DNA of 52,653 nucleotides from a virus, in the UHGV virus genome UHGV-0083175, one strand, 5' to 3'. A model generated the notes under the pieces. That model was not told the DNA's origin, searched no databases, and saw only the letters and a program-made list of their open reading frames with translations. Numbering within the stretch: position 1 is the stretch's first letter; every line of letters starts with the position of its first letter. Shown piece after piece: positions 11,417-33,396 of the stretch. The position numbers and the translations under genes are program-made.

Positions 11417-11422
11417 ATGGAC

Positions 11423-18909: not shown

Positions 18910-19006
18910 GTGTTTCTGACCTTGGATAAGGCAAGGGAGAAATTATGGGTAGGGAGGTGCTTTCCCTGTGAGGAAGTATAAAAGATTCTTTCTGAGGTTG
19001 TCCATT

Positions 19007-19120: not shown

Positions 19121-19121
19121 T

Positions 19122-19589: not shown

Positions 19590-19612
19590 TATTTTTGTTA
19601 TCCGGAGGATGC

Positions 19613-20508: not shown

Positions 20509-20639
20509 TTATTTCATCAGAAATTAATTATCACTCTGTTGTTATTCTGTACATCCCGGCTGGGTAAGTCTTGTTCCGCCGGGTATGAAGATGAAATATT
20601 GTTGGAGGACAGTGGGTACCTGCTCCTGTAACCGAACGT

Positions 20640-20840: not shown

Positions 20841-20881
20841 ATTTATTTCCTTTACTGATTGCCATATGACGGGGATTTTAC

Positions 20882-21247
20882 ATGGCTGAGCTTCGTACAC
20901 TCCAGAGCAGAATCAAAACACTGAATACCCGACGGGTGAATATTCTGAAGGGTGAACAGCGTCGTGTCAGTGGCAGTGCACGTGTTTCCCTCAAGCGTCA
21001 TATCTGGCTCAGGGATGCCGGGCAGTGCTGTCTCTGTGGTCGTGTGGTTGACCTCTGTGACAGTGAACTCGATCACCGAATTGCACTTCAGTTCGGTGGT
21101 GGTAATGAGGAGACGAATCTCTGGACGCTCTGTACCGAATGCCATCGACAAAAGTCTGCTCGTGAAGCGGCGGGTGGTATGCCGGACCCGACGCTGCCGG
21201 AGGTGTCCGGAGGTAGTGGCAGAGCGGACGACATCATCGGACTGTAA
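20882..21247 (+). CDS. HNH endonuclease (packaging-associated)
   Basis: C.LCG.......ELDH.......G...NL..LC..CH..K pattern, located immediately upstream of cos and terS. Confidence 0.85.
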   Translation: MAELRTLQSRIKTLNTRRVNILKGEQRRVSGSARVSLKRHIWLRDAGQCCLCGRVVDLCDSELDHRIALQFGGGNEETNLWTLCTECHRQKSAREAAGGMPDPTLPEVSGGSGRADDIIGL

Positions 21248-21249
21248 CC

Positions 21250-21320
21250 CGACCGGGGGGGGGGAATCATTCGGGGTAAAAAACGATCGCTCCGGACACC
21301 CCCCCCCCTCTCACCCAGAG
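21250..21320. other. Helper cos region (predicted cosN)
   Basis: G10 (21255-21264) ... CGATCGCTCCGGACACC ... C10 (21299-21308), between the HNH and terS genes. A homologous copy lies at 30051-30115. Confidence 0.5.
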
Positions 21321-21342
21321 AAAAAATTCCCGTTTCAGGTCA

Positions 21343-21462
21343 GTTAACATGTTAACTGGCTTCACGGGCATTTTTGCAGTTTTTATCTTTATTATTCAGT
21401 TTGTTGCGCGGAAAAAATGTTAACAGGCTTTTTCAGCAAATGTTAACCAGGCAGCAGTTAAC
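21343..21462. repeat. Five ATGTTAAC/GTTAACAT repeats (cosB-like TerS-binding sites, predicted)
   Basis: GTTAAC at 21343, 21351, 21419, 21442 and 21457, lying between cos and terS. Confidence 0.55.
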
Positions 21463-21538
21463 ATTTGCGGCATGAGACGCCGGGAAAAATGGGCTGAACC
21501 ATACCCGGCTGAGTGCATTCTGGACCCGGGAGGAGGCT

Positions 21539-22102
21539 GTGCTGACAACGCAAAAACGAAAATTTGCGCTGGCGCTCATGTCCGGGAAAAACAAAACAGC
21601 GTCAGCCATTGCCGCCGGTTATTCGGCGAAGACAGCCAGGGTTAAAGGCTCGCAGCTGGCAAAAGATCCGGAGGTGCTCGCGTTTATAGCCCGTAAGCAG
21701 TGCGAGACGGTAGAGGTGGATGAGGTTCCTGTTTACCGGCAGAAAAAATCAGAGCAGGAGGATAAACCCCGTCGCCGTGAGGCGGCTGCAATACCACAGC
21801 CGGACGAAACAAATCCGGAGATGCCTCTGCCCGTGGTGATATCTCCTGGTATTGAGTATATGGATGACGGTCTTCCCGATCCGGTGAAAGCGATGGGGCG
21901 TCTTCTGGTGGAGAACATTAATACCGACCCCAGGCTGGCGCTGGATGTGGCTTATAAGCTGGCACAGTTCACGCACCACAAAAAAGGGGATGCCGGTAAA
22001 AAATCGGCAAAAGGTGACGCGGCGAAAAAAGCGGCTAACCGTTTTGCGGTGCCACCACCCCCCCGACTGGTGGTGAATAATGATAATGAGGGCAGCGGAT
22101 GA
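21539..22102 (+). CDS. terS: Terminase small subunit (P27 family)
   Basis: N-terminal HTH QKRKFALALMSGKNKTASAIAAGYSAKTARVKGSQLAKDPEV. Its stop overlaps the terL start. Confidence 0.85.
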   Translation: MLTTQKRKFALALMSGKNKTASAIAAGYSAKTARVKGSQLAKDPEVLAFIARKQCETVEVDEVPVYRQKKSEQEDKPRRREAAAIPQPDETNPEMPLPVVISPGIEYMDDGLPDPVKAMGRLLVENINTDPRLALDVAYKLAQFTHHKKGDAGKKSAKGDAAKKAANRFAVPPPPRLVVNNDNEGSG

Positions 22103-22380
22103 TACCTGTGTGGAGCACGGCCTGCCCGGACTGGGCAGAGCGCCTGAAAAAGGGGCTGTCGATTATTCCGGCTCCGATTTACCCGGACCAGGCCGCACAT
22201 GCCCTGGCGATTTTTAAACAACTGCGGATTGTGGATGCACCGGGCAGCCCGACGTTCGGGGAGTCCTGTGCACCGTGGGTGTTTGATCTGGTGGCTGCCC
22301 TGTTTGGCTCCTACGATGCGCAGACCGGTGTACGCCATATAAAGGAAGTGTTCATTCTGATACCGAAAAATAATAGATAA
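22099..22380 (+). pseudogene. terL: Terminase large subunit, 5' fragment (interrupted by the island)
   Basis: The TerL N-terminus ends ..IKEVFILIPKNNR*. The reading frame breaks inside the P-loop at the island junction. Confidence 0.85.
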
Positions 22381-22381
22381 T

Positions 22382-22415
22382 AAAAAAACAAATAAAGTGT
22401 TTATTTGTTTTTTTC
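22382..22415. terminator. AT-rich hairpin terminator at the island left junction
   Basis: AACAAATAAA-gtg-TTTATTTGTT flanked by A- and T-runs. Confidence 0.45.
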
Positions 22416-22543
22416 TACGTTTTATCAAATAGTTATGGTTATCTTTGCTCTATGTTTTTATGTGTTGCTAACGGCAGATTTTAACGCTTTGTTGTTGACA
22501 TGGACTAACCGATGAACCATAAACTTTATCTGTAGGGGCATTT

Positions 22544-23779
22544 ATGCTAATCAAACCGTTAAGCCATGTTGAAGTAAAGAACGCAAAACCAAAGGATAAA
22601 GATTACTCGCTTCATGATGGATTTGGGTTGTTGTTATATGTTTCAAGAAAAGGCTGTAAAACATGGCGTTTCAGGTATCAGCACCCCGACACCAAAAAAA
22701 GACAAACGCTTACCATTGGTCGTTATCCAGATTATTCAATAGCTGAGGCAAGAGAGGAAAGGGATAAAGCAAGGAAATTACTTTCAAGAGGTGTGGATCC
22801 TAATGAGTCTAAGCGCAAGGCAAAATCTGAACGAATTATGCTGAGGTCACAGACCTTTGAAAAAATAACAAATAACTGGTTTGAATTGTATTTAAAGGGA
22901 AGCAGAAGGGAAAATACAGTAAAAACAGTTAGCAGAGTTATTAAAGTTTATATTATTCCTGATTTTGGGGGTTGGACGATTTATGATATACGTGCTGATA
23001 ATGTATTGTCAGTTATTAGAAAATATGACGAAACGCCTGCACAGCAACGAAAAATAGTACAGGTTATGCGTCTTGTTATGGATTATGCCGTGAATGCTGG
23101 AATTGTTCAGTTTAATCCGTTGTCTCGTATTCATAAAGCGCTTCCACCTATGGAAGAGAAAAGCTTTAAGGCGCTGCCCATAGAAAGATTACCCGCTTTT
23201 CTTAATTGGCTTGAGTCAGAAAGTTGTCATCCATCAATAACATATGGTCTTCTTTTTATGATGCTGACAATGACCAGACCTAACGAGGCATTAGGTGCCA
23301 AATGGTCAGAACTGGACGTTGACAGAAAACTATGGACCATTCCAGCAGAGAGGATGAAGGGGAAAAGAGAACACATTATTCCTTTATCTTTACAGGCTGT
23401 TGAAGTGATAATGCGAATGAGAAAAATAAAACAAAGTGAGTATGTTTTTTTTGGTGCTCATTCAGTTGCAAAGGCAATAACGAGAGATGCTATTGTCAGT
23501 AGGGTTAATAAAAGCGAGTTTGCAAAGGAAATGACAGTACACGGATTCAGGTCAATGTGGAGCACATTACTCAATGAAGAGGGATTTAACCCCGATGTTA
23601 TAGAGGCTGCACTTGCACATAAGAGCGGAAATACTGTAAGGGATATTTATAACAGGACGTCATATATTGAACAGCGGGTAATAATGATGCAATGGATAGG
23701 TGATTTTGTCGATTCTGCAAGACGTGGGGTTATTGTTAGGACGCATGGTAAACGCGGTTTAAAATTGGTAAATGAATAA
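22544..23779 (+). CDS. int: Tyrosine integrase (P4-type, N-terminal DUF4102 arm-binding domain)
   Basis: ..KDKDYSLHDGFGLLLYVSRKGCKTWRFRY... N-terminus. The catalytic region has ..HGFRS.. and ..LAH.....VR..Y. Confidence 0.9.
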   Translation: MLIKPLSHVEVKNAKPKDKDYSLHDGFGLLLYVSRKGCKTWRFRYQHPDTKKRQTLTIGRYPDYSIAEAREERDKARKLLSRGVDPNESKRKAKSERIMLRSQTFEKITNNWFELYLKGSRRENTVKTVSRVIKVYIIPDFGGWTIYDIRADNVLSVIRKYDETPAQQRKIVQVMRLVMDYAVNAGIVQFNPLSRIHKALPPMEEKSFKALPIERLPAFLNWLESESCHPSITYGLLFMMLTMTRPNEALGAKWSELDVDRKLWTIPAERMKGKREHIIPLSLQAVEVIMRMRKIKQSEYVFFGAHSVAKAITRDAIVSRVNKSEFAKEMTVHGFRSMWSTLLNEEGFNPDVIEAALAHKSGNTVRDIYNRTSYIEQRVIMMQWIGDFVDSARRGVIVRTHGKRGLKLVNE

Positions 23780-23791
23780 GGTGTACAATAT

Positions 23792-23998
23792 ATGAATGAT
23801 ATAAATAATAGTCAGATTTTGTTGCGTGATGATGTGATGAAAAAATTGCGATACAACAACGCGGCTGCTTTTCATATGTTTTTTAACAGAACGCCGGACT
23901 TTCCAAAGCCCTTCAAGATAGGCCGTCGCAATGCCTGGTATGAAGAGGATGTGCAAAATTGGCTTGATGAACAGCGAAGAAAAGCCCTTGAGGAGTGA
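23792..23998 (+). CDS. alpA: AlpA-family regulator/excisionase
   Basis: 68 aa, located just downstream of int. The pattern ..FPKPFKIGRRNAWYEEDVQNWL is AlpA-like. Confidence 0.75.
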   Translation: MNDINNSQILLRDDVMKKLRYNNAAAFHMFFNRTPDFPKPFKIGRRNAWYEEDVQNWLDEQRRKALEE

Positions 23999-24056
23999 AC
24001 GTAAAAGAACAGGCGTCCTTAAAGGTCGCCTGTTATGTAGTAGTGGAATATTACAA

Positions 24057-24419
24057 TCATGTTTTTTTTGATGCTATGTAAGCAAGAATGCACGGTTCCT
24101 TTGCCAGTTGTGACCCTTTCGATCTGGCTGTTTTCGCACTGTATCCAGCAAGAATAGCGCACTGTGTCTGATTCAGCCCTTTCATCATGTAATCAGCAAA
24201 TTTCTTTTTTTGCTTCGTCAGCTTGTTTGTTTGGTCGTTTTTATCATCGTTTGCGGTAAAAACATTAGATGTGGTCTTAAGCTGATGTTTACAGGCTTCA
24301 ATTACCCACGATGAGAAGTTGGAGTGCGCTTTATCTCTTTCTATGCGTTTTTCAATATCAGCTAATAAGTCAGGCGGGAAGCGGATCCCCTTAAGTATCG
24401 CTTTGCGTGTTTTGTCCAT
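24057..24419 (-). CDS. Fusion of a YlcI-like RHH domain and a TerS-type N-terminal HTH
   Basis: N-terminus ..GIRFPPDLLADIEKRIERDKAHSNFSSWVIEACKHQL (compare 20640-20840). C-terminus KQKKKFADYMMKGLNQTQCAILAGYSAKTARSKGSQLAKEP (compare the terS N-terminus). Confidence 0.7.
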   Translation of the reverse strand: MDKTRKAILKGIRFPPDLLADIEKRIERDKAHSNFSSWVIEACKHQLKTTSNVFTANDDKNDQTNKLTKQKKKFADYMMKGLNQTQCAILAGYSAKTARSKGSQLAKEPCILAYIASKKT

Positions 24420-24439
24420 TCATGGCCCCAAAATAAGTA

Positions 24440-24535
24440 GTGTTAACTTGTTACTATTTAACAGTTTTTGAGGGTGTGTTAAACAAAAAACTGGTTTGTG
24501 TTTAACGAAAATCGCTTCGTGTTAAACACGTTGCC
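24440..24535. promoter_or_regulatory. GTTAAC / TGTTAAACA repeat cluster (operator-like)
   Basis: GTTAAC at 24442, followed by three TGTTAAAC(A)/GTTTAACA copies upstream of the RHH-HTH gene. Confidence 0.45.
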
Positions 24536-24593
24536 TAGTTAGTGGGGACAGATGACGAGTTGATCAAACCTGCCGGATAACAGGCAAAGAAAA

Positions 24594-24620
24594 GGCCACC
24601 TGTCACGGTGGCCCTTCGAC
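24594..24620 (-). terminator. Intrinsic terminator of the leftward regulatory operon
   Basis: Read on the minus strand: GGCCACCG-tgaca-GGTGGCC followed by TTTTCTTT. Confidence 0.5.
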
Positions 24621-24692
24621 ACAAATTTCGCGTTATCCCCAACGCATGAGCATCGCCGACAATGCCACATTTACGGCTGGTGGACAAGGCTA

Positions 24693-24920
24693 TCAGCCAG
24701 GCGGTCGGTTTTTAGTGGCTTTTAACCGCCGTGGGTATTTCTCGACAAAATCTTCAAGGGCAAATTTTTCTGGTGGCATTAAGCGCGGCGCTGGTGGTGG
24801 TATTTTTGTTCTGGTTAGTTCTTCCTCAACTCTGGCGCAGGCTTCTGACTGCCTTTGCCGGATGATTTCATCATCTTGCGTTTGCGTGTCTTGTATTGGT
24901 GATAGTGTGTTGTTGGTCAT
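24693..24920 (-). CDS. Hypothetical protein
   Basis: 75-aa ORF downstream of the RHH gene on the minus strand. Confidence 0.4.
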   Translation of the reverse strand: MTNNTLSPIQDTQTQDDEIIRQRQSEACARVEEELTRTKIPPPAPRLMPPEKFALEDFVEKYPRRLKATKNRPPG

Positions 24921-24977
24921 GATACTGCCCTGTAAAGCAATGCGCCGTAGTACCTCACACCACGGCGCTGATAGTGA

Positions 24978-25157
24978 TTATTCTGATTCTTTGGCCTTGC
25001 GGCGCTGGCGGCGTTTGATCTCGCCTTTTGCTGCCGTAACTAGAAATCCGGCGGTACTTTCGCCAGGTTCTTTAAGTTGCTCAATATCGGTCATTACCTC
25101 ATGCGGGATTCTGACCGTTGTCATTTGTGATTTTGCGTTCTTTGCACCTGTTGCCAT
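24978..25157 (-). CDS. Small RHH (CopG/Arc-like) regulator
   Basis: The ATG at 25157 follows GGAGA. MATGAKNAKSQMTTVRIPHEVMTDIEQLK.. has the RHH beta-strand pattern. The track ORF is over-extended. Confidence 0.6.
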   Translation of the reverse strand: MATGAKNAKSQMTTVRIPHEVMTDIEQLKEPGESTAGFLVTAAKGEIKRRQRRKAKESE

Positions 25158-25177
25158 TTCTGGTTCTCCTGATAATC

Positions 25178-25270
25178 GGTGTATTTCAGTATACGCAAAA
25201 AAAAAGATAAAAAAAGTCTTGCGGTGTATTTCACCTGAATGTAGATTTAAAAATGAAGGTGAAATACACC
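25178..25270. promoter_or_regulatory. Divergent promoter/operator region of the island
   Basis: Perfect 13-bp inverted repeat GGTGTATTTCACC (25223-25235) / GGTGAAATACACC (25258-25270), plus a half-site at 25178-25188. A TTGCGG-N17-TAGATT promoter overlaps it. Confidence 0.5.
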
Positions 25271-25343
25271 TAAAACAACAACGCCCCGCAGTGATGGGAA
25301 CACATACGGGGCGTCTAACCAACAACGTAAACGAGGAGCCGTT

Positions 25344-25541
25344 ATGGTTGCCGTAAATCATATACCACACCTTGTACACACACAAACGGCCTTTGTGTGG
25401 CGTTTTCTGGCACTGAGTGCCGGAGAATCTCAAATCATCCACGTAACCGCCTGGACGGAACGCGAAGCGCGTAACCGTTGCCCGTCCGGTTGTGTTGCTG
25501 TATTTGCCGCCCGTATTCGTCAGGAGGTGCGCCATGATTAA
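25344..25541 (+). CDS. Icd-like (cell division inhibitor family) small protein
   Basis: ..FVWRFLALSAGES..IHVTAWTEREARNRCP.GCVAVFAARIR resembles recalled Icd-like proteins of P4/PICI elements. Confidence 0.5.
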   Translation: MVAVNHIPHLVHTQTAFVWRFLALSAGESQIIHVTAWTEREARNRCPSGCVAVFAARIRQEVRHD

Positions 25542-25746
25542 TCTGTCACTTACTGACCTTAACCGCATTCAGTTTCGTGAGAAATTCACAGGGCAGCTAC
25601 TGGTCAATGTGGATAAAGGTCGCGTGGTGTGTAATTACCACTTACCAGATGAAGCAATTGTCGCCACAAGGGAATCATTACAGGAAATCACAAAACGTGC
25701 CGGAATGATTAACACGAATATTCAGGGGATGCTTTATGCACAATAA
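25534..25746 (+). CDS. Hypothetical protein
   Basis: ATG after GGAGGTG, overlapping the upstream stop; 70 aa. Confidence 0.45.
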   Translation: MINLSLTDLNRIQFREKFTGQLLVNVDKGRVVCNYHLPDEAIVATRESLQEITKRAGMINTNIQGMLYAQ

Positions 25747-25975
25747 AACCACACCGGACGCAGCCGCCGAAGCCATCAAAACGCTGATGCACGCGCTGAT
25801 TGATATTTCTGTTATCGCGGACAGGGCACATAAGCACGCCACCAGCGAAACAGAATATGCCGGTGCTTTCGTTCCTCACTCACTGGCTGTCATGCAATTT
25901 AGTGCTGATACGGCGCTGAATGAGGCCAAAGCTATCCTGATTGCTGATTGTGAAAATGGGGGGGGTTATGCGTGA
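25736..25975 (+). CDS. Hypothetical protein
   Basis: 79-aa ORF in a coupled gene string. Confidence 0.45.
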   Translation: MHNKTTPDAAAEAIKTLMHALIDISVIADRAHKHATSETEYAGAFVPHSLAVMQFSADTALNEAKAILIADCENGGGYA

Positions 25976-26201
25976 TGATCGTTTTAATTCCCTGAAACAG
26001 GAATTTTCCGGCGTTCCTGATGATGCGGCTGATGCGCTTTCGTCAATGCCAGAACTTATTAGAGCGGCTTTTTTCTTACTTTCCACGAGAGAATATAAAT
26101 CAACGGGGCTTGATGTACTGAATATCGCCGCCGATTATGCGGAATATGTGGCAGAGGCGCGTTATAGAAGAAAATTTCCTGAGGATGTAAGCCATGCGTG
26201 A
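25968..26201 (+). CDS. Hypothetical protein
   Basis: The ATG at 25968 overlaps the upstream stop; 77 aa. Confidence 0.45.
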   Translation: MRDDRFNSLKQEFSGVPDDAADALSSMPELIRAAFFLLSTREYKSTGLDVLNIAADYAEYVAEARYRRKFPEDVSHA

Positions 26202-26427
26202 TATTTACCACCAAACAATAGACCGCGCATTTCTTGCACTTTCTCACAGTGAAAACATGATGGAAATATTGCGCATATGGCTTGAAACACTTGGCGACAA
26301 TGAACGCGACAAACAAAAATCAAGAATTGCCACGGCATTAATAACGCTTCTTGAGCCTGTAATAATGGAACTGCAAGAAATAGATCTATTGCACGACAGA
26401 TATAAAGAACAGCACATCGGAGAATAA
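26194..26427 (+). CDS. Hypothetical protein
   Basis: 77-aa ORF in a coupled gene string. Confidence 0.45.
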   Translation: MRDIYHQTIDRAFLALSHSENMMEILRIWLETLGDNERDKQKSRIATALITLLEPVIMELQEIDLLHDRYKEQHIGE

Positions 26428-26432
26428 AAATA

Positions 26433-26732
26433 ATGAAACTTAAATATTCTGGCTTAACTGCCAGTGGCAACACTCACCCTAAATTTACGCGCGGTGATAT
26501 TTACCGCGACCAGTACGGCGGCACGGTAATGATTAAGGGCGTGGCGGGACGGTGCGTAACTTACCGCCGTGAAGGTTACGAATATGATTGCGTGATGCCT
26601 GTTTATCAGTTCCGGCGTGATTTTTCTCTGGTACAGACCGCGCCGCATAACGTGCCCACCAGCAACGCCAGGGCACGGGCAAACATCCAGAAGCTGAAAA
26701 CCATGATTAACGGATTCAGGGGTAAAAAATGA
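26433..26732 (+). CDS. Hypothetical protein
   Basis: 99-aa ORF whose stop overlaps the start of the rep gene. Confidence 0.5.
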   Translation: MKLKYSGLTASGNTHPKFTRGDIYRDQYGGTVMIKGVAGRCVTYRREGYEYDCVMPVYQFRRDFSLVQTAPHNVPTSNARARANIQKLKTMINGFRGKK

Positions 26733-28126
26733 AACTGGCACCGAATGTAAAACTGTTACCGAAAGATAAACACACCGAAGCGGTTATTTTTGCGGGTGAT
26801 AATGCTCACTCATTTGCAGAGCACTACATCATTGCACAGGCCAAAAAAGCAGGCGATCCAGTCCCTCCCGTTTACCTGGGGCGTTATCAGTTAAGCGAAC
26901 TGGATAACTTGCAGATTGTTGATAAAGGTCGGTTCAGGGCGAAAGTGATACGTGCCGGAAATATTGACGAAGTGCAGTTGTTAACCATCGCCACGAAACT
27001 GGCAATCGCAGGAGTCCAGGAAGCGCGCCTGTTTTCTGAAAATTTCGAATTGCTGGAGGAATGGAGCGACCAGCTTACACGGCTTAGGGAGACATGGGAA
27101 CGCGGGGAAAGCCTGAGCCACCAGCGAAAAACAAAGCTACCGATGAGCGTTGGATCTGCCGGATACGACACGCAATTAGATTACGTGGTAAAGGGGATTA
27201 TTCCGGCATCGTCGCTATGCAGCATATACGGGGCGAGCGGTTCATATAAATCGTTCCTTGCGGGTTCGTGGGCGTGTCACGTTTCCACGGGCCGCCAGTG
27301 GGGAGGCCGCAGGGTTGCACATGGTGCAGTTCTCTATGTGGTTGGTGAAGGCGGTATTGGTGTTCCGCGTCGTGTAAAAGCCTGGGAGGTTGTGCACGGT
27401 GAGCAGGTGAAAAATCTGTATCTGGTAAACCGTCCCATCTTTCCGGCTGTCCCGCTTGATGTTGATGAAATGGTTATCGCTGCCCGCCAGGTGGAACGGG
27501 AAACCGGTAAACCTGTACGCATGATTATTCTGGATACGCTGGCGCGTTGCTTTGGCGGCAATGATGAAAATGACTCCCGCGACATGGGGGCATTTATCCG
27601 TGGTTGTGACGAGCTTAAACGGCGCACAGGGGCCACTGTGCTGGTGGTTCACCATTCCGGCAAGGATGAAACAAAGGGGGCGCGTGGTTCCAGTGCATTT
27701 CGTGCTTCGCTGGATGCTGAATACCGGATACGCAGGGAGGACGCAGGAAGCGAAGCGCTGGTTATCTCATGCACCAAAATGAAGGACGCGGAGGAACTCA
27801 AAGAGGCTGCCTATGATTTGCGGGTGGTGGAGCTTTTTACCGACGCTGACGGGGAGTTAATCACGTCGCTGGTGGTGGTGGATAAGTCGCGCCCTCCCGT
27901 TGAACTGGAGCGCATCGAAGAGGCAGGCAACAAGACGGAAAACCATACCGCGCTATGGGGGTGTATCCGTTCACGCACACAGAACGGCGACAAGTGCACG
28001 ATCCCGCTGTTACGTGATGACATGAAAAAACTGGGGTACGAAATAAAGCACTTCCGGCGCTGGCTGGGCAAGCTGGAAAAAGACGGCGTTATCTATGTTG
28101 ACGGCGATGATGTAGGGCCACTGTAA
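26729..28126 (+). CDS. Replication protein, RepA/AAA_25-type (RecA-like) helicase, Pri-Rep-like
   Basis: Walker A-like YGASGSYKSF, Walker B-like RMIILDTLARCFGG.DEND, and ..VLVVHHSGKD..KGARGSSA. Iterons follow immediately. Confidence 0.8.
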   Translation: MKLAPNVKLLPKDKHTEAVIFAGDNAHSFAEHYIIAQAKKAGDPVPPVYLGRYQLSELDNLQIVDKGRFRAKVIRAGNIDEVQLLTIATKLAIAGVQEARLFSENFELLEEWSDQLTRLRETWERGESLSHQRKTKLPMSVGSAGYDTQLDYVVKGIIPASSLCSIYGASGSYKSFLAGSWACHVSTGRQWGGRRVAHGAVLYVVGEGGIGVPRRVKAWEVVHGEQVKNLYLVNRPIFPAVPLDVDEMVIAARQVERETGKPVRMIILDTLARCFGGNDENDSRDMGAFIRGCDELKRRTGATVLVVHHSGKDETKGARGSSAFRASLDAEYRIRREDAGSEALVISCTKMKDAEELKEAAYDLRVVELFTDADGELITSLVVVDKSRPPVELERIEEAGNKTENHTALWGCIRSRTQNGDKCTIPLLRDDMKKLGYEIKHFRRWLGKLEKDGVIYVDGDDVGPL

Positions 28127-28328
28127 AAAGTGGGGGGCAAAAGTGGTGGGCATGGGGAATTTAACAAAATTTAAACACGACCCCCCACTTTTTGACCTGT
28201 ATACATCCCAAAAAGTGGGGAGCAAAAAAATACTTATGAAACAGCATGATAAAAATTACAAATCCCACGCCTTTAACGAGATGGGGAATTGTGAAAAGTG
28301 GGGAGTAAAAGTGGGTATAGGTGGGGAG
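28127..28328. repeat. Island replication origin iterons (AAAGTGGGG repeats)
   Basis: At least 6 copies of AAAGTGG(G/T)GG(A)G in both orientations (28127, 28140, 28181 inverted, 28211, 28294, 28308), flanking an AT-rich spacer at 28224-28262. Confidence 0.6.
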
Positions 28329-28580
28329 ATGACACAAAAACGCAGAGACAGAACACAGCCAAAATATAAAGCGTTAGACATGACAGAGCACGCTTTAAAG
28401 GTGGCAATCAGAACGATAGACCGCCACGCGGGGGAAGGATACGCGAAGGAACATCCCGACCTGATAAGCGCATTCATGACCACAGCGGCGGCAAACTTTG
28501 CCACGCTGACAGAACGGGAGATTGCCGAAGCGGAACAGGTAACAACCATCAACGTTAAAACCGGAGAGTTGGAATCATGA
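28329..28580 (+). CDS. Hypothetical protein
   Basis: The likely start is the ATG at 28329, after the iterons. The track ORF start (28143) would read through the origin. Confidence 0.4.
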   Translation: MTQKRRDRTQPKYKALDMTEHALKVAIRTIDRHAGEGYAKEHPDLISAFMTTAAANFATLTEREIAEAEQVTTINVKTGELES

Positions 28581-28882
28581 GCGAACCAAAATTTGGTGAA
28601 AAACTTTACAAGCACAACGGACGGATCACGATTCTGCAAATAAGCGCAGCTACACCAGGCTGGTGGGTTGAAACAGACGAAGGATCCTCACCCGTGGCAT
28701 CATGGGCGCTTTGTGCGCTTAGTTACCCTGACCGCGATGTGTATCAGGATATTCTGCCTGTGATATCCACTGACAAAGGCATGAAACCCGTAGACATCAA
28801 AAACATGGGTTTTCAGTGCGTAATGCTCACTGAAAAAATGATGGAAGAGATGAAAAAGAACAACGCCGGATCGCTTCACTGA
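28577..28882 (+). CDS. Hypothetical protein
   Basis: 101-aa ORF, coupled to the upstream gene. Confidence 0.5.
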   Translation: MSEPKFGEKLYKHNGRITILQISAATPGWWVETDEGSSPVASWALCALSYPDRDVYQDILPVISTDKGMKPVDIKNMGFQCVMLTEKMMEEMKKNNAGSLH

Positions 28883-28891
28883 GGTGGCAAT

Positions 28892-29290
28892 ATGACAGCA
28901 CAAATTGCAGCTTACGGGCGGCTGGTGGACGACCCGCAGGTAAAACAGACCAGCAAGGGCACACCGATGACGCTGGCGCGTATGGCGGTATCTTTGCCAT
29001 GCAGCCAGGCACAGGACGGACAGGCGACGTTATGGTTATCGGTCATCGCATTTGGCAAACAGGCCGACTTCCTGGCTAAACATCAAAAAGGAGATGTTGC
29101 CAGCGTATCCGGCACGATGCAGGTAAGCCAGTGGACAGGCCAGAACGGCGAAACGCGGCAGGGCTGGCAGGTTATCGCAGACAGCGTAATCAGTGCCCGA
29201 GGCGGGAACAGACGCAAAACCACAGGCACACAGGGTAATCAGCCACCAGCGGGAGGCGATGACCCTTACGGTGATGGTATTCCGTTCTGA
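28892..29290 (+). CDS. ssb: Single-stranded DNA-binding protein
   Basis: OB-fold pattern (..GRLVDDPQVKQTSKGTPMTLARMAV...W..V.AFGKQA..L...KGD...V.G......W), a Gly/Pro-rich tail and an acidic tip DGIPF. Confidence 0.85.
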   Translation: MTAQIAAYGRLVDDPQVKQTSKGTPMTLARMAVSLPCSQAQDGQATLWLSVIAFGKQADFLAKHQKGDVASVSGTMQVSQWTGQNGETRQGWQVIADSVISARGGNRRKTTGTQGNQPPAGGDDPYGDGIPF

Positions 29291-29300
29291 GGGGGTGAGG

Positions 29301-29573
29301 ATGGTACATGACCGCATAGCGGAGGAACTCGAGGCGAAAGGATTTTACCGGAGGGCGGCGGCGCGATGGGGTGAAGTCATGCAGCTGGTGGAGACAGACA
29401 AGGAACGGTATCAGGTTACGATGCGACGGCTGGAATGTTCCAGGAAGGCACAGAAGCCACCGGAGCCGCCGGATAACTTCGGAGACCTGAGAAAGGCAGT
29501 CGATCGCACTTATGCTGAAATGGGTATAGATGGTGCAGGCGATGAAGTATGGCGTAATTACCCAGACAGCTAA
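29301..29573 (+). CDS. PerC/Pch-family transcriptional activator-like protein
   Basis: MVHDRIAEELEAKGFYRRAAARWGEVM.. resembles the recalled PerC family core (LE..G.YRRAA.RW.EV). Confidence 0.6.
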   Translation: MVHDRIAEELEAKGFYRRAAARWGEVMQLVETDKERYQVTMRRLECSRKAQKPPEPPDNFGDLRKAVDRTYAEMGIDGAGDEVWRNYPDS

Positions 29574-29578
29574 GCACA

Positions 29579-29602
29579 TAGCCGGAGCAATCCGGCTTTT
29601 TT
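29579..29602 (+). terminator. Intrinsic terminator
   Basis: AGCCGGA-gcaa-TCCGGCT followed by T7. Confidence 0.75.
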
Positions 29603-29691
29603 TCGATCTCACATATCTTTAAAAATGGTTGATTGATTATAATCTATCGAAAATAATGATTATGAGATGATAAGCATCAGGAGGAAACAAA

Positions 29692-29886
29692 GTGGAACAG
29701 ATAAAGCAAAGCGCTACCGTGATGATTGATCACGAGATCCTAAACGAGCTTAAAAAACTTCAATTCGATGTTATTCGCCGGATGAATGAAGCTGGTATAT
29801 ACGGCAGAGCCGCCACGCCAACAGTAGGCCATCTTGCTCGCGTGCTGTTACGCGAACGCCTGGGCATTGCAACAGGTGAGGAATAA
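29692..29886 (+). CDS. Hypothetical small protein (RHH-like N-terminus)
   Basis: GTG start 8 nt after AGGAGG; 64 aa. Confidence 0.45.
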   Translation: MEQIKQSATVMIDHEILNELKKLQFDVIRRMNEAGIYGRAATPTVGHLARVLLRERLGIATGEE

Positions 29887-29888
29887 CA

Positions 29889-30050
29889 ATGGTTATCACA
29901 GAACGCGAGGCAAGCATCATTAAAGCCATTGGCGAGGAAACAAGAGACACGATAGCGCCATTAATGGAAAAGATCGCAGAGCTTGAGACACGAATAAACA
30001 AGCTGAGTGATGAAGTTGAAGGCCTGATCTCGTTACTCGGTGAGCAATGA
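29889..30050 (+). CDS. 53-aa protein resembling the N-terminus of the helper repeat protein (below the track cutoff)
   Basis: MVITEREASIIKAIGEE.. compared with the helper protein at 36907, MNERELSIIRALGEE... It has a coiled-coil tail. Confidence 0.45.
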   Translation: MVITEREASIIKAIGEETRDTIAPLMEKIAELETRINKLSDEVEGLISLLGEQ

Positions 30051-30115
30051 CAGGGGGGGGGGAGTGTTCCGGCCGGAAAGTCGATCGCCCTGGACACCGC
30101 CCCCCGTCTCATTCG
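30051..30115. other. Island cos-like site
   Basis: G10 (30053-30062) ... CGATCGCCCTGGACACC-G-CCCCCC-GTCTCA, homologous to helper 21255-21312. Confidence 0.5.
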
Positions 30116-30138
30116 TAGAAAATTTTGCTTTTCAAAAA

Positions 30139-30412
30139 AGTTACACGAAAAGTTACACCCCCTCAAAACGAGGTTTTTGCATGGCATTAACGACCAAAAA
30201 AAAGCGGTTTGCTGATGCGTTATCAAGGGGCGCAAATCCCACGGAAGCCGCTATACATGCGGGATACAGCGAAAAGACCGCAAGGGTTAAAGGCTGGCAG
30301 CTATCCAACGATCCTGAGGTGAAAAAGTATCTTAAGGTTGTCACTCCTGATGTAACTTTTCAGGTTACAAAACCGAAAAAAGTTACAAAGAAAGTTACCG
30401 AAAAAGTTACAC
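30139..30412. repeat. (A/G)GTTAC(A/C) repeat array spanning the terS-like 5' region
   Basis: Copies at 30139, 30151, ~30351 (inverted), 30363, 30381, 30393 and 30405. The last three are spaced 12 bp apart. Confidence 0.55.
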
Positions 30413-30669
30413 CGGAACGGGCATCAATCAGCACCATAGAACGGATGGACAACGGCTTGCCCGACCCTATCAAAGCTATGGGCAGGATACTGGCTGACAA
30501 CATAGACACAGATCCAAAACTGGCTTTAGATGCCGCGTTTAAGCTGGCCCAGTTCACCCACCGCAAGATCGGCAGCATTGGGAAAAAAGAGGTTAAAAAA
30601 CTCAATGCCGCGAATGTCTCCTCAAATCGGTTCCCCATCCCTAAGCCACCAACAGGCTTAAAACACTGA
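30181..30669 (+). CDS. Island-encoded terminase small subunit paralogue
   Basis: The HTH KKKRFADALSRGANPTEAAIHAGYSEKTARVKGWQL and C-terminus MDNGLPDPIKAMGRILADNIDTDPKLALDAAFKLAQFTH closely parallel the helper TerS. Confidence 0.8.
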   Translation: MALTTKKKRFADALSRGANPTEAAIHAGYSEKTARVKGWQLSNDPEVKKYLKVVTPDVTFQVTKPKKVTKKVTEKVTPERASISTIERMDNGLPDPIKAMGRILADNIDTDPKLALDAAFKLAQFTHRKIGSIGKKEVKKLNAANVSSNRFPIPKPPTGLKH

Positions 30670-30680
30670 GGTAGCGAACT

Positions 30681-30842
30681 ATGAACGAATACATCACAGA
30701 CCCTATTGATGTACTCACGGAAATCATGAACGACAAGCAGCAGCCAACCGAAATACGGTTACAGGCTGCCGCTGTTCTGATGCCATATTTTCACGAAACT
30801 CTAACCCCATGTTACCAGGAGGAAGAAGATGATGATTTCTAA
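30681..30842 (+). CDS. 53-aa hypothetical protein (below the track cutoff)
   Basis: MNEYITDPIDVLTEIMNDKQQPTEIRLQAAAVLMPYFHE.. with an acidic tail. It overlaps the next start. Confidence 0.45.
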   Translation: MNEYITDPIDVLTEIMNDKQQPTEIRLQAAAVLMPYFHETLTPCYQEEEDDDF

Positions 30843-31755
30843 AAACATGAAAGGCGTGTCGGCAGTTCGCGCCGCCAGCGTGCTTACATCGTGTAAATTC
30901 AGCCATGCAGACGCAATTGAAATGACGAAAAAAAATGATCCGGCAGTATCGAAATTTCTTGAAAAATCCATTGTTGCCGGAATGACTACGGATAATATGC
31001 CGTCGCTGGTGGCAGAGCCGATAGTAAGAGAGCTTGGCGAGTATATTTTTTCGCAGTCTGTACCAGGCAAGCTAATCAGCAGCGCGCTGAATCTTCCGTT
31101 TGGCGCAAAATTGCAGTCAATATCAGGCAAGGGTAGTAAATGGCTTAAAGAAGCCGAAGAAATCCCTGTCAAAGAGGGAGAAGTAAACGAAAGTGCGCTA
31201 AAACTGTGCAAACTTGGCGCTATTGTGATGCTGAATAACGAGCTAATCAAATTTAGCACCCCTGGTACCAATTCAGCGATCAGAGACTTGATCACATCGG
31301 AATCGGTGAAAGAAATAGATAAAAAATTTCTTTCCAGTGACCAGGAGTTGGCGGGCGTATCCCCTGAGGGCGTGCTTAATGGTGCTGATGAGGCCGAAAA
31401 CTTCATAGAGCTTTTCAAAAAGCACATAGCGAACGGTAACACGCTTGCCACGTCGTCGCTAATCTTGCCCGTAGAAAACGCCTTACAGCTTACTGATGCT
31501 GAGTTCTGGCAGATAGAGCTTTTGAGAATACCGGTAATTGTGAGCGAACAGGCGGATCGCATGATGCTGATAGACGCTCAAAAGCTGATTATTAACGTTG
31601 AAGCCACGGTTATAACCCCAACTGATGAGGCGGTAATAAAAACCGAATCAGGGACGGTTAGCCTTTTCCAGAATGACGCTACAGCGTTCAGGGCAATCAC
31701 CTATTGCGGATGGCAAAAACTCGATAAGGCCGTCACCGTTCTGGCGCAATCTTGA
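30829..31755 (+). CDS. HK97-fold major capsid protein paralogue (no protease/scaffold part)
   Basis: Several blocks align by eye to the C-terminal half of 33397-35334, for example ..LCKLGAIVMLNNELIKFSTPGTNSAIRDLI.. against ..AKVSAIAVLTEELIRFSSPAADALVRNAL... Confidence 0.7.
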   Translation: MMISKNMKGVSAVRAASVLTSCKFSHADAIEMTKKNDPAVSKFLEKSIVAGMTTDNMPSLVAEPIVRELGEYIFSQSVPGKLISSALNLPFGAKLQSISGKGSKWLKEAEEIPVKEGEVNESALKLCKLGAIVMLNNELIKFSTPGTNSAIRDLITSESVKEIDKKFLSSDQELAGVSPEGVLNGADEAENFIELFKKHIANGNTLATSSLILPVENALQLTDAEFWQIELLRIPVIVSEQADRMMLIDAQKLIINVEATVITPTDEAVIKTESGTVSLFQNDATAFRAITYCGWQKLDKAVTVLAQS

Positions 31756-31932
31756 TGTAGTGCGCCGCATTACTGGTTATGTGAATGCGGCGCATAGGGC
31801 CTACGAAAAACAAAATTAGTTTACGTTATCTTATGTAACCATATTTAACGGAGAAGACTAAAACGCGGACTATTTAGTGTCAGTGCGTGAGCCTAACAGC
31901 ATAATAAACAAGATATTAAGATAGCTTTACGC

Positions 31933-33333
31933 ATACCCAAAAAAAACAGCAAGTCCACGCTGGCTGCCGGGATCATGATGACGGCGCTGTTACTGAACTG
32001 GCGGCAGGCGGCGGGCTACACCATTCTGGCCCCGACCGTGGAGGTGGCGGCTAATGCCTTCAATCCTGCCAGGGATATGGTACGACGGGACGATGATCTG
32101 GATGACCTCTGTCAGGTGCAGACACATATCCGGACCATCACCCATCGGGTGACGGACACCACCCTGAAGGTGGTGGCAGCCGATCCGAATACGGTGTCCG
32201 GTATCAAGTCCGTGGGGACACTGATTGATGAACTGTGGCTGTTTGGCAAGCAGTACAAAGCGGAGGACATGTTACGTGAAGCCATAGGTGGCCTTGCCTC
32301 CCGCCCGGAAGGGTTTGTGGTGTATACGACCACCCAGTCGAATGAACCGCCCGCCGGGGTGTTCAGACAGAAACTGCAGTACGCCCGGGATGTGCGCGAC
32401 GGCAAAATTCATGATCCGCACTTTCTGCCGGTGATATTTGAGCATCCGCCGGAGATGGTGGAGCGCGGTGAGCACCTGCTGATGGAAAACCTCGCCATGG
32501 TCAATCCGAATCTCGGTTATTCGGTGGATGAGGCCTTTCTGTACCGGGAGTATCGTAAAGCCCGGGAAGCCGGTGAAGATACATTCCGGGGGTTCATGTC
32601 AAAACACGCCAATGTGGAAATTGGTCTTGCCCTGCGTTCTGACCGCTGGGCGGGTGCGGATTTCTGGGAGCAGCAGGGCAGGCGCGTCAGCCTGGACGAT
32701 ATTCTGCAGCGCGCTGATGTGGTGACGGTGGGGATTGACGGCGGGGGCCTGGATGATCTGCTGGGAATGTACGTGATTGGCCGTGACAGGGAAACCCGCG
32801 AATGGCTGGGCTGGGGCCATGCCTGGGCGCATGAAACCGCGGTGGTCAGACGGAAGAGTGAGGCATCCCGTTTTCAGGATTTTGTGGCCTGTGGAGACAT
32901 GACGATTGTCCGTCGGGTCGGGGATGACACGGCGGAAGTGGCGGAGTATGTGCGTCGTATTCATGAGGCTGAGTTACTGGATCATATCGGTATTGACCCG
33001 TCAGGTGTGGGGCAGATTCTGGATTCACTGGCGGAAGCCGGGATCCCCGACGGAATTGTTGTGGGGATAAGCCAGGGCTGGAAGCTGGGCGGGGCCATCA
33101 AAACCACCGAGCGCAAACTGGCTGAGGGAGTGCTGGTGCATGGTGGTCAGCCACTGATGGCCTGGTGCGTTGGCAATGCCCGGGTGGAGCCTAAAGGTAA
33201 CGCCATCCTTATTACCAAACAGGCCAGCGGACGGGGGAAAATTGACCCGCTGATGGCGCTGTTCAATGCGGTATCCCTGATATCCCTGAATCCGGAGCCC
33301 AAAAAGAAAGAATATGCGGTTTTTTTCATATAA
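31933..33333 (+). pseudogene. terL: Terminase large subunit, 3' fragment
   Basis: The frame is open from 31933 (IPKKNSKSTLAAGIMMTALLLNW...). The track ORF begins at the internal ATG 31975. It continues 22099-22380. Confidence 0.85.
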
Positions 33334-33396
33334 CCCTGTTCACCCTGTAACCATCATGGACCGCTGCGGCGGTTTTTTTATTTTCAGGAGGCTGAT

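What the first reader, a model, noticed from the sequence alone, without database searches (positions are those of the whole stretch)
22099..33333. Integrase-bearing satellite interrupts the prophage terminase large-subunit gene exactly at its Walker A codons
ORF 22099-22380 is the N-terminus of a TerL and ends ..IKEVFILIPKNNR*. Reading the frame of ORF 31975-33333 back to 31933 gives IPKKNSKSTLAAGIMMTALLLNW.., which is the continuation, so the break falls inside the P-loop (PKKNSKST). The 9.6 kb in between opens with a P4-type integrase and alpA. It is bounded by imperfect direct repeats ATACCGAAAAA (22360-22370) and ATACCCAAAAAA (31933-31944). A crossover inside that core would rebuild an in-frame LIPKKNSKST.

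Inference: the helper cannot package DNA until the island excises, and the island is always co-resident with a helper. Targeting the most conserved terL codons could give access to many prophages. I do not recall a satellite that uses its helper's own terL P-loop as attB being described.
Basis: partly seen in the sequence, partly recalled or inferred. Interest (0 to 1): 0.92.

Follow-up and report, generated by a model that had tools for sequence, protein, structure and literature searches.

The report
Satellite embedded in helper prophage terL
A 9.6-kb phage satellite sits inside the DNA-packaging motor gene (terL) of its own helper prophage, exactly at the ATP-binding loop. This "helper-embedded" arrangement was already described in 2023; what looks unreported is this target site and this integrase lineage.

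Summary
Window 22099-22380 and 31933-33333 are the two halves of one HK97-type terL. Joining them at the 11-bp repeat gives a 553-aa protein 100% identical to an intact E. coli TerL. The break falls in the Walker A loop (LIP|KKNSKST).

The 9,562-bp insert is a Gram-negative PICI-type satellite. It carries a P4-like integrase, a weak AlpA match, a RepA-like helicase, SSB, a PerC-like activator, a cos-like block, a TerS homologue and a capsid homologue. All are co-oriented with terL.

The same integrase (99% identity) lies at the same nucleotide position in two terL alleles and in islands with different replication modules. It is at terL in about 27 of 32 contigs. Integrases 69% and 58% identical use the same codons in Salmonella and in a third, unidentified genome.

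The novelty claim fails. Helper-embedded PICIs in prophage late genes, including two terL sites, were published with excision data (Tommasini et al. 2023, PMC10111431).

Two things do appear unreported. First, the Walker-A site is absent from that paper's att files. Second, this integrase is only 24-25% identical to theirs, and 11 of 12 sampled lineages in its group (41-100% identity to it) lie in prophage late-gene regions.

Excision was not tested here.

The parts
20882..21247 (+). Helper prophage HNH endonuclease, part of the HNH/TerS/TerL packaging module
   Evidence: PHROG 589 HNH endonuclease, E 8e-45. RefSeq relatives are annotated as HNH endonuclease.
21250..21337 (+). Helper cos-like block between HNH and terS (G10 ... 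CGATCGC ... C10). It is the candidate packaging site.
   Evidence: It aligns to island 30048-30134 with local score 37. A thousand shuffles gave mean 8.6, sd 1.3, maximum 16. Function is inferred.
21539..22102 (+). Helper terminase small subunit
   Evidence: Pfam Terminase_2, E 1.5e-8. RefSeq relatives are annotated as terminase small subunit.
22099..22380 (+). terL 5' fragment: codons 1-90 of TerL, then three island-encoded codons and a stop
   Evidence: Identical to residues 1-90 of the intact TerL of L001.
22360..22370 (+). attL core ATACCGAAAAA
   Evidence: Comparison of attB, attL and attR. Polymorphism pattern across loci.
22382..22414 (+). Perfect 15-bp AT-rich hairpin followed by a T run, just inside the island. 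It may act as a terminator or a protein-binding palindrome.
   Evidence: RNA fold -9.8 kcal/mol, z -3.1, 0 of 200 shuffles as stable. The consensus terminator scan did not call it because it has no G-C pairs.
22503..22526 (+). Doubled motif GACTAA-N6-GAACCA at +138/+150 from the core centre. It is a candidate arm-type site and lies between a TTGACA and a CATAAA hexamer upstream of int.
   Evidence: The same position is kept in L022, L027 and L060, and it is about +130 in L025.
22544..23779 (+). Satellite tyrosine integrase (P4-like, 411 aa)
   Evidence: Pfam Arm-DNA-bind_3, Phage_int_M and Phage_integrase. Copies 99% identical occur in many E. coli assemblies.
23792..23998 (+). AlpA-like small regulator or excisionase (68 aa)
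   Evidence: Pfam Phage_AlpA, E 6e-4, 20.1 bits against a 21-bit cut-off. Position and size are as in PICIs. Annotated HTH regulator in L002.
24057..24419 (-). Chimeric protein: a YlcI/YnfO-like (DUF3950) N-terminal part fused to a TerS N-terminal HTH domain
   Evidence: Pfam DUF3950 plus Terminase_2. It is 66% identical to the helper TerS N-terminus and 46% to the helper DUF3950 protein.
26433..26732 (+). DUF4222-family protein preceding the replicase
   Evidence: PHROG 285, E 2e-31. Pfam DUF4222 in the equivalent genes of related loci.
26729..28126 (+). RepA-like AAA_25 helicase (satellite replication)
   Evidence: Pfam AAA_25, E 1.7e-43. PHROG 2850 over the full length.
28892..29290 (+). 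Single-strand DNA-binding protein
   Evidence: Pfam SSB, E 1.6e-16.
29301..29573 (+). PerC-like transcriptional activator (90 aa)
   Evidence: PHROG 994 and 10396, transcriptional activator. Pfam PerC in the equivalent genes of related loci. Start codon chosen.
30048..30134 (+). Satellite cos-like block upstream of its terS homologue
   Evidence: Aligns to helper 21250-21337.
30178..30669 (+). Satellite TerS homologue, a candidate for redirecting packaging
   Evidence: PHROG 641 terminase small subunit, E 2e-43. It is 46% identical to the helper TerS.
30829..31755 (+). Satellite HK97-fold capsid homologue (308 aa, no protease or delta domain)
   Evidence: Pfam Phage_capsid, E 1e-6. It is 22% identical to the capsid part of the helper's protease-capsid protein, E 1e-20.
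31856..31879 (+). Doubled motif GACTAA-N6-GACTAT at -82/-70 from the core centre, a candidate arm-type site
   Evidence: The right end of the terL island in L025 has GACTA at -81.
31933..31943 (+). attR core ATACCCAAAAA
31933..33333 (+). terL 3' part, from codon 89 to the stop. It begins inside the Walker A loop.
   Evidence: Translation. Pfam TerL_ATPase positions 29-164 plus TerL_nuclease. Identical to the intact TerL.
33397..35334 (+). Helper prohead protease-major capsid fusion protein
   Evidence: PHROG 617 major head protein, E 1e-261, and PHROG 80 protease.

Best explanation
This is a helper-embedded, PICI-type phage satellite of 9,562 bp. Its P4-like tyrosine integrase recombined its attP with an attB made of the Walker A codons of a lambdoid prophage's HK97-type terL. 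The core is ATACCCAAAAA, and strand exchange most likely occurs within CCCAAAAA.

Shown from sequence:
- The insertion is precise and co-oriented with terL.
- It carries no replacement terL sequence.
- It is exactly reversible.
- It recurs at the same position in different terL alleles, island variants and host genera.

Inferred, by analogy with the published HE-PICI 11capE and from the anatomy:
- After prophage induction the composite excises and replicates.
- Helper late transcription runs from terS and the terL 5' fragment into int-alpA.
- Int plus AlpA then excise the satellite and rebuild terL.
- Only then can this copy produce TerL, so the packaging motor appears only once free satellite circles exist.
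- The satellite supplies a cos-like site, a TerS homologue and a capsid homologue. With these it can divert the helper's TerL, HNH and structural proteins to package its own small genome.
For: Colinearity with an intact TerL and exact restoration by either crossover.

PICI gene set in the standard order, all main genes co-oriented with terL.

Recurrence:
- The 99%-identical integrase sits just downstream of terS plus the terL 5' fragment in 16 of 18 displayed places. Counting similar places not shown, that is about 27 of 32 contigs.
- The junction is at the same nucleotide in two terL alleles (TTCTGATACCC... and TCCTTATCCCC...). It occurs in islands with either a RepA-like helicase or a D5-type primase.
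- Among complete E. coli genomes, the only other copy of this integrase is at the same site, in strain 90-3040.
- Integrases 69% identical (Salmonella, L022) and 58% identical (L060/L025) use the same Walker A codons.

att anatomy:
- Core positions 6 and 9 appear on either side of the island in different loci, as expected for bases inside the overlap region.
- Positions 3 and 12 always segregate with their parent.

Packaging and attP features:
- A significant cos-like block is shared by helper and satellite at equivalent positions upstream of each terS.
- The satellite TerS homologue is 46% identical to the helper's.
- The reconstructed attP has doubled GACTA motifs at -82 and +138, conserved in position among relatives. 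The published HE-PICI geometry is -81 and +132.

Published precedent: 11capE excised precisely, after replication of the composite, following mitomycin C (PMC10111431).
Against: - No excision product, transcript or particle was observed for this element. An exact search for the attP junction found nothing in viral or metagenome contigs.
- The helper may be defective. Its portal reading frame is split in two (35546-36910 and 36907-38292), and RefSeq relatives annotate it as frameshifted. The 90-3040 helper has a stop in terS.
- The window's attL and attR differ at core position 6. If that base lies in the overlap region, recombination could be less efficient.
- Other copies of this terL type in a polylysogen could supply TerL in trans, which would weaken the checkpoint idea.
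- The AlpA assignment is just below Pfam's cut-off.
- Virions were never obtained even for the published model element.
Confidence: 0.78

Rival explanations
1. Dead-end insertion. The satellite integrated once into a prophage that is already defective and no longer excises. The split terL is then a pseudogene in a decaying prophage, with no regulatory role.
For: The portal is split into two ORFs and relatives are annotated as frameshifted. terS has an internal stop in the 90-3040 helper. Tommasini et al. note that many helpers look truncated. No attP junction was found in public contigs.
Against: Both terL halves are 100% identical at the protein level to an intact allele, and int is full length. 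The same integrase is found at the same site in several terL alleles and island variants, and also at a secondary site. This requires repeated recent integration events. The portal split has the same length in many genomes, so it need not indicate decay.
Confidence: 0.14
2. terL is an accidental secondary site. The integrase's real attB would be chromosomal, and the prophage copies are off-target events at a look-alike A-rich sequence.
For: The same integrase protein (P0003) is also found in an MFS transporter gene next to DeoR/PfkB genes. The core there is similar (ATCCGGAAAAA).
Against: About 27 of 32 contigs are at terL, and only one other site is seen. Integrases 69% and 58% identical keep the terL Walker-A site in other hosts. 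Relatives down to 41% identity lie in late-gene regions of prophages.
Confidence: 0.04
3. The element is mainly an anti-helper brake rather than a timing device. Keeping terL broken lowers helper yield, which would benefit the host or the satellite. Precise timing of excision would not matter.
For: Known satellites reduce helper yield, and the HE-PICI authors suggest the same. The island carries a chimeric DUF3950-TerS(N) protein and a TerS homologue that could interfere with helper packaging.
Against: The satellite has no terL of its own, so it also needs the repaired gene. The two readings are not exclusive, and sequence alone cannot separate them.
Confidence: 0.04

Closest known systems
HE-PICI 11capE (Eco567.11.E_Phage_cap_E_80) in prophage 50icd of E. 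coli NRG857c (Tommasini, Mageeney and Williams 2023, PMC10111431)
   Same: [quoted passage not shown]
- No replacement sequence in attP, so the late gene is broken until excision.
- Same gene order: int, alpA, a variable regulatory zone, replication genes (DUF4222, replicase, SSB), then late genes including a capsid homologue.
- A cos-like sequence is shared with the helper.
- Arm motifs occur as doubled 12-bp-spaced half-sites about 81 bp upstream and 132-138 bp downstream of the core.
   Different: - The target is terL Walker A of an HK97-type head module, not lambda-type capsid gene E.
- The integrase is only 25% identical (87 bits). That is far below the 400-bit cut-off of that survey.
- The arm half-site is GACTAA-like, not TGTATTGC.
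- This island has a full TerS homologue; 11capE lacks terS.
- No excision data exist for this element.
HE-PICIs at terL sites A:Terminase_1:132 (Klebsiella, Salmonella) and A:Terminase_1:245/246 (E. coli; example L031 in strain EC416)
   Same: These are satellites embedded in the large terminase gene of the helper, downstream of HNH and terS.
   Different: - They insert at profile positions 132 and 245/246, with cores aatatcacga and ttaccaa. Here the position is about 29, in the P-loop, with core ATACCCAAAAA.
- The A246 integrase is 50% identical to the 11capE integrase but 24% identical to this one.
- The window's att flanks are absent from the paper's attL and attR files.
EcCICFT073 and other Gram-negative PICIs (Fillol-Salom et al. 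2018, 2019, as cited in PMC10111431)
   Same: An int-alpA-replicase layout, cos-type helpers, and a TerS-family protein thought to redirect packaging. The Rpp comparison is from my own knowledge of that work.
   Different: Those islands sit in chromosomal genes and interact with the helper only in trans. Whether the TerS homologue here acts like Rpp was not tested. It has no match among solved structures.
Regulated gene integrity elements such as the B. subtilis skin element and 'active lysogeny' prophages (concept as discussed in PMC10111431; examples from my own knowledge)
   Same: A mobile element splits a gene, and programmed excision restores it.
   Different: Here the split gene belongs to another mobile element, the helper phage. 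The switch presumably serves the satellite rather than the cell.

Membership tests
Helper-embedded PICI (HE-PICI; Tommasini et al. 2023) | Integrated within and disrupting a prophage late gene, with no replacement sequence in attP | tested here: met
   terL is split at codons 89-92. The attL side runs into stop codons supplied by the island. An intact homologue is colinear across the junction. The flanks are a lambdoid prophage with lysis, HNH, TerS, head and tail genes.
Helper-embedded PICI (HE-PICI; Tommasini et al. 2023) | Key satellite genes (int, alpA, replicase) co-oriented with the interrupted late gene | tested here: met
   int, alpA, helicase, SSB, the terS homologue and the capsid homologue are all on the + strand, like terL.
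Helper-embedded PICI (HE-PICI; Tommasini et al. 2023) | Integrase belongs to the single HE-PICI integrase clade (relatives of the 11capE integrase, at least 400 bits) | tested here: not met
   It is 25% identical (87 bits) to the 11capE integrase and 24% (109 bits) to the A246 integrase. Those two share 50% identity (405 bits). No full phylogeny was built.
Helper-embedded PICI (HE-PICI; Tommasini et al. 2023) | Doubled tgTGTATTGCantgTGTATTGCa motif 81 bp upstream and 132 bp downstream of the attP centre | tested here: not met
   The motif was found in the positive controls L021 and L031 but not in this island. A different doubled motif (GACTAA-N6-GACTAT and GACTAA-N6-GAACCA) occupies -82 and +138. 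The geometry is therefore kept but the sequence is not.
Helper-embedded PICI (HE-PICI; Tommasini et al. 2023) | Precise excision after induction that restores the late gene | not testable with these tools
   Only in-silico restoration could be shown. No attP junction was found in public contigs.
Gram-negative PICI | Island of about 10-15 kb with int, alpA, its own replicase and a few packaging or capsid genes, and no lysis or tail genes | tested here: met
   The island is 9,562 bp. It has int, an AlpA-like gene (weak match), an AAA_25 helicase, SSB, a TerS homologue and a capsid homologue. No terL, portal, tail or lysis gene was found among its ORFs.
Gram-negative PICI | Induced and packaged by a helper phage | not testable with these tools
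   This is only inferred, from the shared cos-like block and the TerS homology.
P4-like satellite | The P4 core gene set (psu, delta, sid, the alpha primase-helicase) alongside a P4-type integrase | tested here: not met
   The integrase has P4-like domains, but none of the scanned island proteins matched those functions. The replicase is an AAA_25 helicase, and the island has TerS and capsid homologues instead. Not every small ORF was scanned.
Capsid-forming PICI (cf-PICI) | A complete capsid and packaging module of its own (TerS, TerL, portal, protease, major capsid, connectors) | tested here: not met
   Only a TerS homologue and a capsid homologue are present. TerL, portal and protease are supplied by the flanking prophage.

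The most novel reading that the evidence does not exclude
The element may represent a second lineage of P4-like integrases, no more than 26% identical to the published HE-PICI integrases and excluded from that survey by its 400-bit cut-off. This lineage has itself repeatedly switched among prophage late-gene targets.

Twelve lineages of the group were sampled, 40-100% identical to the window's integrase. Eleven lie in prophage late-gene regions:
- HK97-type terL Walker A, three lineages in three hosts
- lambda-type gpA
- two S78 protease/capsid genes
- a PF09950 major capsid gene
- the region just downstream of a DUF2213 gene
- the 3' end of a Phage_portal_2 gene
- the region just downstream of a Phage_portal_3 gene
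- a lambda-like head-tail or tail gene region

For the last several the interrupted gene itself was not mapped. The twelfth lineage (L039, 40%) lies next to cysE. Integrases at 33-37% identity lie at ssrA or tRNA genes.

The group keeps the same attP geometry (doubled arm sites near -82 and +138) but with a different half-site sequence. One helper can carry two such satellites, one in terL and one in the capsid gene.

If this holds, helper embedding is a general strategy of enterobacterial satellites, either recurrent or ancient, and not the peculiarity of one integrase clade. The Walker A codons would be a target chosen for conservation across terL alleles and genera.
Probability: 0.6. Interest if true: 0.55.

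Novelty: new variant of a known kind. Interest (0 to 1): 0.4.

Why it matters
The arrangement ties production of the packaging motor to excision of the parasite, so neither partner can package from this terL copy before the satellite is free. That principle is already published for other late genes.

This case adds three things:
- A target inside the TerL catalytic P-loop, reused by integrases 58-100% identical in E. coli, Salmonella and a third, unidentified genome.
- Evidence that a separate group of integrases has the same preference for prophage late genes.
- A simple experimental handle: restoration of terL can be read out by PCR.

There is also a practical consequence. Such islands make prophage terL genes look like pseudogenes, and they confuse prophage and satellite predictors.

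Tried and rejected
- Exact search for the reconstructed attP junction in IMG/VR viral contigs and in JGI metagenome contigs: no match. There is therefore no sequence evidence of an excised circle.
- Integrase search in viral contigs: only relatives 31-36% identical, which are uninformative.
- Integrase-profile scan of GTDB species representatives: only 7 loci at 33-46% identity. They helped to find where the late-gene preference ends, but they were too few for a survey.
- Rfam scan of 19000-34000 for a P4-type immunity RNA or any other RNA: nothing at E <= 0.01.
- PDB sequence search with the satellite TerS homologue, hoping for Rpp: no match.
- Search for the published HE-PICI TGTATTGC doubled motif: absent here, present in the controls.
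- blastn of the island against the rest of the window: only terS coding similarity. The cos-like block needed a direct alignment.
- Text searches of the HE-PICI paper's attL and attR files for this site's flanks and for the L027 site: none found. One earlier query failed on term syntax.
- Considered and rejected: assembly artefact, because the same junctions occur in a complete genome and many assemblies; cf-PICI and P4-like membership, because the gene sets are missing; integration by homologous recombination through terS, because the junctions are precise att cores within terL, not terS.

Full report
**1. The observation**

ORF 22099-22380 encodes 93 aa ending ILIPKNNR*. The frame of ORF 31975-33333 reads back to 31933 as IPKKNSKSTLAAGIMMTALLLNW, and the other two frames there contain stops. 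The quoted repeats are at the quoted coordinates: ATACCGAAAAA at 22360-22370 and ATACCCAAAAAA at 31933-31944.

A megablast of 20500-35000 against 5,426 complete E. coli genomes found many records in which the two flanks are adjacent, about 4.9 kb apart. One is strain 2018-166, where terL is an uninterrupted 553-aa gene. Its sequence reads ...KEVFILIPKKNSKSTLAAGIMM..., so the window's two pieces are colinear with it.

Joining the pieces on either side of the single mismatch in the repeat gives a 1,662-nt ORF. Its product is 100% identical to that intact TerL. The mismatch is the silent third base of the Pro codon.

The intact protein aligns to the solved HK97 TerL (6z6d), with VFILIPKKNSKSTLAAG opposite AILSIARKNGKTGLIAG. 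I recognise this as the Walker A loop from general knowledge of terminases. In Pfam terms the break is at about position 29 of TerL_ATPase.

**2. What the insert is**

The 9,562 bp between the cores encode, all on the terL strand:
- a 411-aa integrase with Arm-DNA-bind_3, Phage_int_M and Phage_integrase domains
- a 68-aa AlpA-like protein, a weak match just under Pfam's cut-off
- several small ORFs, then a DUF4222 protein
- an AAA_25 RepA-like helicase
- SSB
- a PerC-like activator
- a TerS homologue
- a 308-aa HK97-fold capsid homologue

On the opposite strand there is a chimera of a YlcI/YnfO-like domain and a TerS N-terminal domain.

The island has no terL, portal, protease, tail or lysis gene. 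The flanks supply these. They form a lambdoid prophage with O/P-like replication genes, a methyltransferase, two tRNAs, lysis genes, HNH, TerS, a protease-capsid fusion, a portal, connectors, a tape measure and a J-like fibre.

The satellite TerS homologue is 46% identical to the helper's. The capsid homologue is 22% identical to the capsid part of the helper's protease-capsid protein.

An 87-bp non-coding block just upstream of the satellite terS homologue (30048-30134) aligns to the helper's HNH-terS spacer (21250-21337). Both contain G10, CGATCGC and a C run. The local score is 37, against 8.6 +/- 1.3 (maximum 16) for shuffles. I read this as a shared cos-type packaging signal. That reading is inference.

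This is the gene content and order of a Gram-negative PICI.

**3. Site-specific and recurrent integration**

Among complete E. coli genomes, about 1,250 carry this terL type, in about 3,000 places. Only one genome, strain 90-3040, carries this integrase (99.4% DNA identity). There it sits at the same terL position, in an island with a D5-type primase instead of the helicase.

In the larger protein collection the integrase cluster (99% identity) occurs on dozens of contigs. Of 18 places displayed, 16 have HNH, terS and the terL 5' fragment immediately upstream. Counting similar places not shown, that is about 27 of 32 contigs.

The junction is at the same nucleotide in two terL alleles...TTCTGATACCCAAAAA... 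and ...TCCTTATCCCCAAGAA....

Across these loci, core positions 3 and 12 always come from the expected parent. Positions 6 (C/G) and 9 (A/G) turn up on either side. This is what a mismatch inside the strand-exchange overlap would produce, so it places the overlap within CCCAAAAA (inference).

Five contigs have the island at one other site, in an MFS transporter gene near DeoR/PfkB genes, with the similar core ATCCGGAAAAA. This looks like off-target integration of the kind reported for HE-PICIs.

An integrase 69% identical in Salmonella lies after a terL fragment ending ...VLIPKKNKE*. One 58% identical, in a third and unidentified genome, lies after ...LLISKNN*. The matching 3' part there begins IPKKNTKST. 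The Walker A codons are therefore a conserved target, not an accident.

**4. Is it known?**

Yes, in kind. Tommasini, Mageeney and Williams (NAR Genom Bioinform 2023, PMC10111431) described helper-embedded PICIs. Their founding element, 11capE, lies in the capsid gene of a prophage of E. coli NRG857c. [quoted passage not shown]

They showed by qPCR and deep sequencing that, after mitomycin C, the composite excises and replicates and the satellite then excises precisely. Only a handful of later papers hold either term, and the two I examined for this (a companion preprint and a satellite survey) add no extension.

The interpretation itself is largely in line with published work.

**5. What is not in that paper**

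The window's att flanks are absent from the paper's attL and attR files. The paper's two terL sites are elsewhere in the gene and have different cores.

Its survey kept only integrases scoring at least 400 bits against the 11capE integrase. I fetched the 11capE integrase (L021) and an A:Terminase_1:246 integrase (L031). They are 50% identical to each other (405 bits), but only 25% and 24% identical (87 and 109 bits) to the window's integrase.

The HE-PICI-specific doubled TGTATTGC motif is present in both controls and absent here. Instead, the reconstructed attP has GACTAA-N6-GACTAT at -82/-70 and GACTAA-N6-GAACCA at +138/+150. GGACTA keeps those positions in relatives 51-69% identical. This closely parallels the published geometry of -81 and +132 with 12-bp-spaced half-sites.

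I then sampled integrases related to the window's by their genomic context:

| Identity to window integrase | Context |
|---|---|
| 59% | start of the capsid part of an S78 protease-capsid gene |
| 53% | an S78 protease/capsid-like gene |
| 51% | downstream of lambda-like head-tail joining genes |
| 50% | a lambda-type gpA truncated after its ATPase domain |
| 48% | a PF09950 major capsid gene |
| 46-47% | just after a DUF2213 gene |
| 42% | 3' end of a Phage_portal_2 gene |
| 41% | just after a Phage_portal_3 gene |
| 40% | next to cysE (chromosomal) |
| 33-37% | next to ssrA or a tRNA gene |

With the three Walker-A lineages, that makes 11 of 12 sampled lineages at 40% identity or more in late-gene regions. 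For several of them I did not map the interrupted gene. One contig carries two embedded satellites in one helper, one in terL and one in the capsid gene.

This sampling is small and no joint phylogeny was built. It does suggest a second integrase group with the same preference for late genes.

**6. Mechanism, with status of each step**

Shown by sequence:
- precise, reversible and recurrent integration at the P-loop codons
- co-orientation with terL
- satellite dependence on the helper for TerL, portal, protease and tails
- a shared cos-like block

Inferred by analogy with 11capE and from the anatomy:
- antiterminated late transcription enters int-alpA; a perfect AT-rich hairpin at 22382-22414 might block unmodified polymerase
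- Int and AlpA excise the satellite, which repairs terL
- TerL is made and, together with the satellite TerS homologue, packages satellite DNA, possibly into capsids altered by the capsid homologue

Caveats:
- There are no excision data for this element.
- The portal frame is split.
- Sibling prophages could supply TerL in trans.
- Some helpers are decayed.

**7. Verdict**

The feature is real and correctly read, and it belongs to a kind already described. I file it as working like an HE-PICI. By the published definition, however, two hallmarks are not met: membership of the 11capE integrase clade and the TGTATTGC arm motif.

It is best called a new variant of a known kind. It has a previously unlisted target, the TerL Walker A loop, and an integrase from a distinct group that may have its own history of switching among late genes.

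Interest is moderate (0.4). A specialist would not be surprised by the principle. The same specialist would find the second integrase group and the conserved attP geometry worth a follow-up survey.

Noticed in passing
L060 and L025 (one contig, ERZ15232907 NODE_13, about 131.5-153.3 kb): One helper prophage carries two embedded satellites. One (integrase P0011, 58% identical) is at the terL Walker A codons. The other (P0009, 59%) is at the start of the capsid part of the protease-capsid gene, about 1.4 kb downstream of the repaired terL end.
   Followed up: partly
window 35546-36910 and 36907-38292: The helper portal (PHROG 2271, 859 positions) is split into two ORFs that overlap by ATGA. RefSeq annotates the equivalent 2.7-kb gene as 'frameshifted' in strains 2018-166 and 90-3040. 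It could be a shared defect or a programmed frameshift.
   Followed up: no
window 24057-24419 (- strand): A chimeric 120-aa protein: a YlcI/YnfO-like DUF3950 domain fused to a TerS N-terminal HTH that is 66% identical to the helper's TerS N-terminus. In many related islands only a 43-aa TerS remnant is called at this position. It could be a packaging-interference or regulatory protein.
   Followed up: partly
L004 6051-14948 and L010 (E. coli draft assemblies): The same integrase protein (P0003) is also found at a chromosomal site inside an MFS transporter gene beside DeoR/PfkB genes. The attL core is ATCCGGAAAAA and the attR core is ATACCCAAAAA. This looks like a secondary site resembling the terL target.
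   Followed up: partly
L006 (GCA_051562845.1 contig, 1-13719): The left junction is the usual terL attL. The island's right part is different: it has a CLP_protease-capsid fusion gene and runs into chromosomal clpS/clpA. This suggests a rearrangement or recombination with another island.
   Followed up: no
window 22503-22526 and 31856-31879; also L022 5949, L025 3697 and 5966, L027 5970, L060 about 2946: Doubled GACTA-type motifs lie at about -82 and +138 from the att core. They are conserved in position among integrases 51-100% identical. The downstream copy lies between a TTGACA and a CATAAA hexamer just upstream of int, so it could also act as an operator.
   Followed up: partly
window 10235-10396 and 14116-16053: The helper carries tRNA-Met and tRNA-Arg genes and a 645-aa protein whose homologue in strain 90-3040 is annotated as a SASA-family carbohydrate esterase. 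This layout is typical of Stx-type lambdoid prophages. I saw no long ORF that could be stx between them, but I did not search for stx specifically.
   Followed up: no
L002 3906-4469 (E. coli 90-3040): In the only complete genome with this embedded satellite, the helper's terS is annotated with an internal stop. About 0.87 kb of extra sequence also separates the satellite capsid gene from the terL 3' part. That helper may therefore be defective.
   Followed up: no
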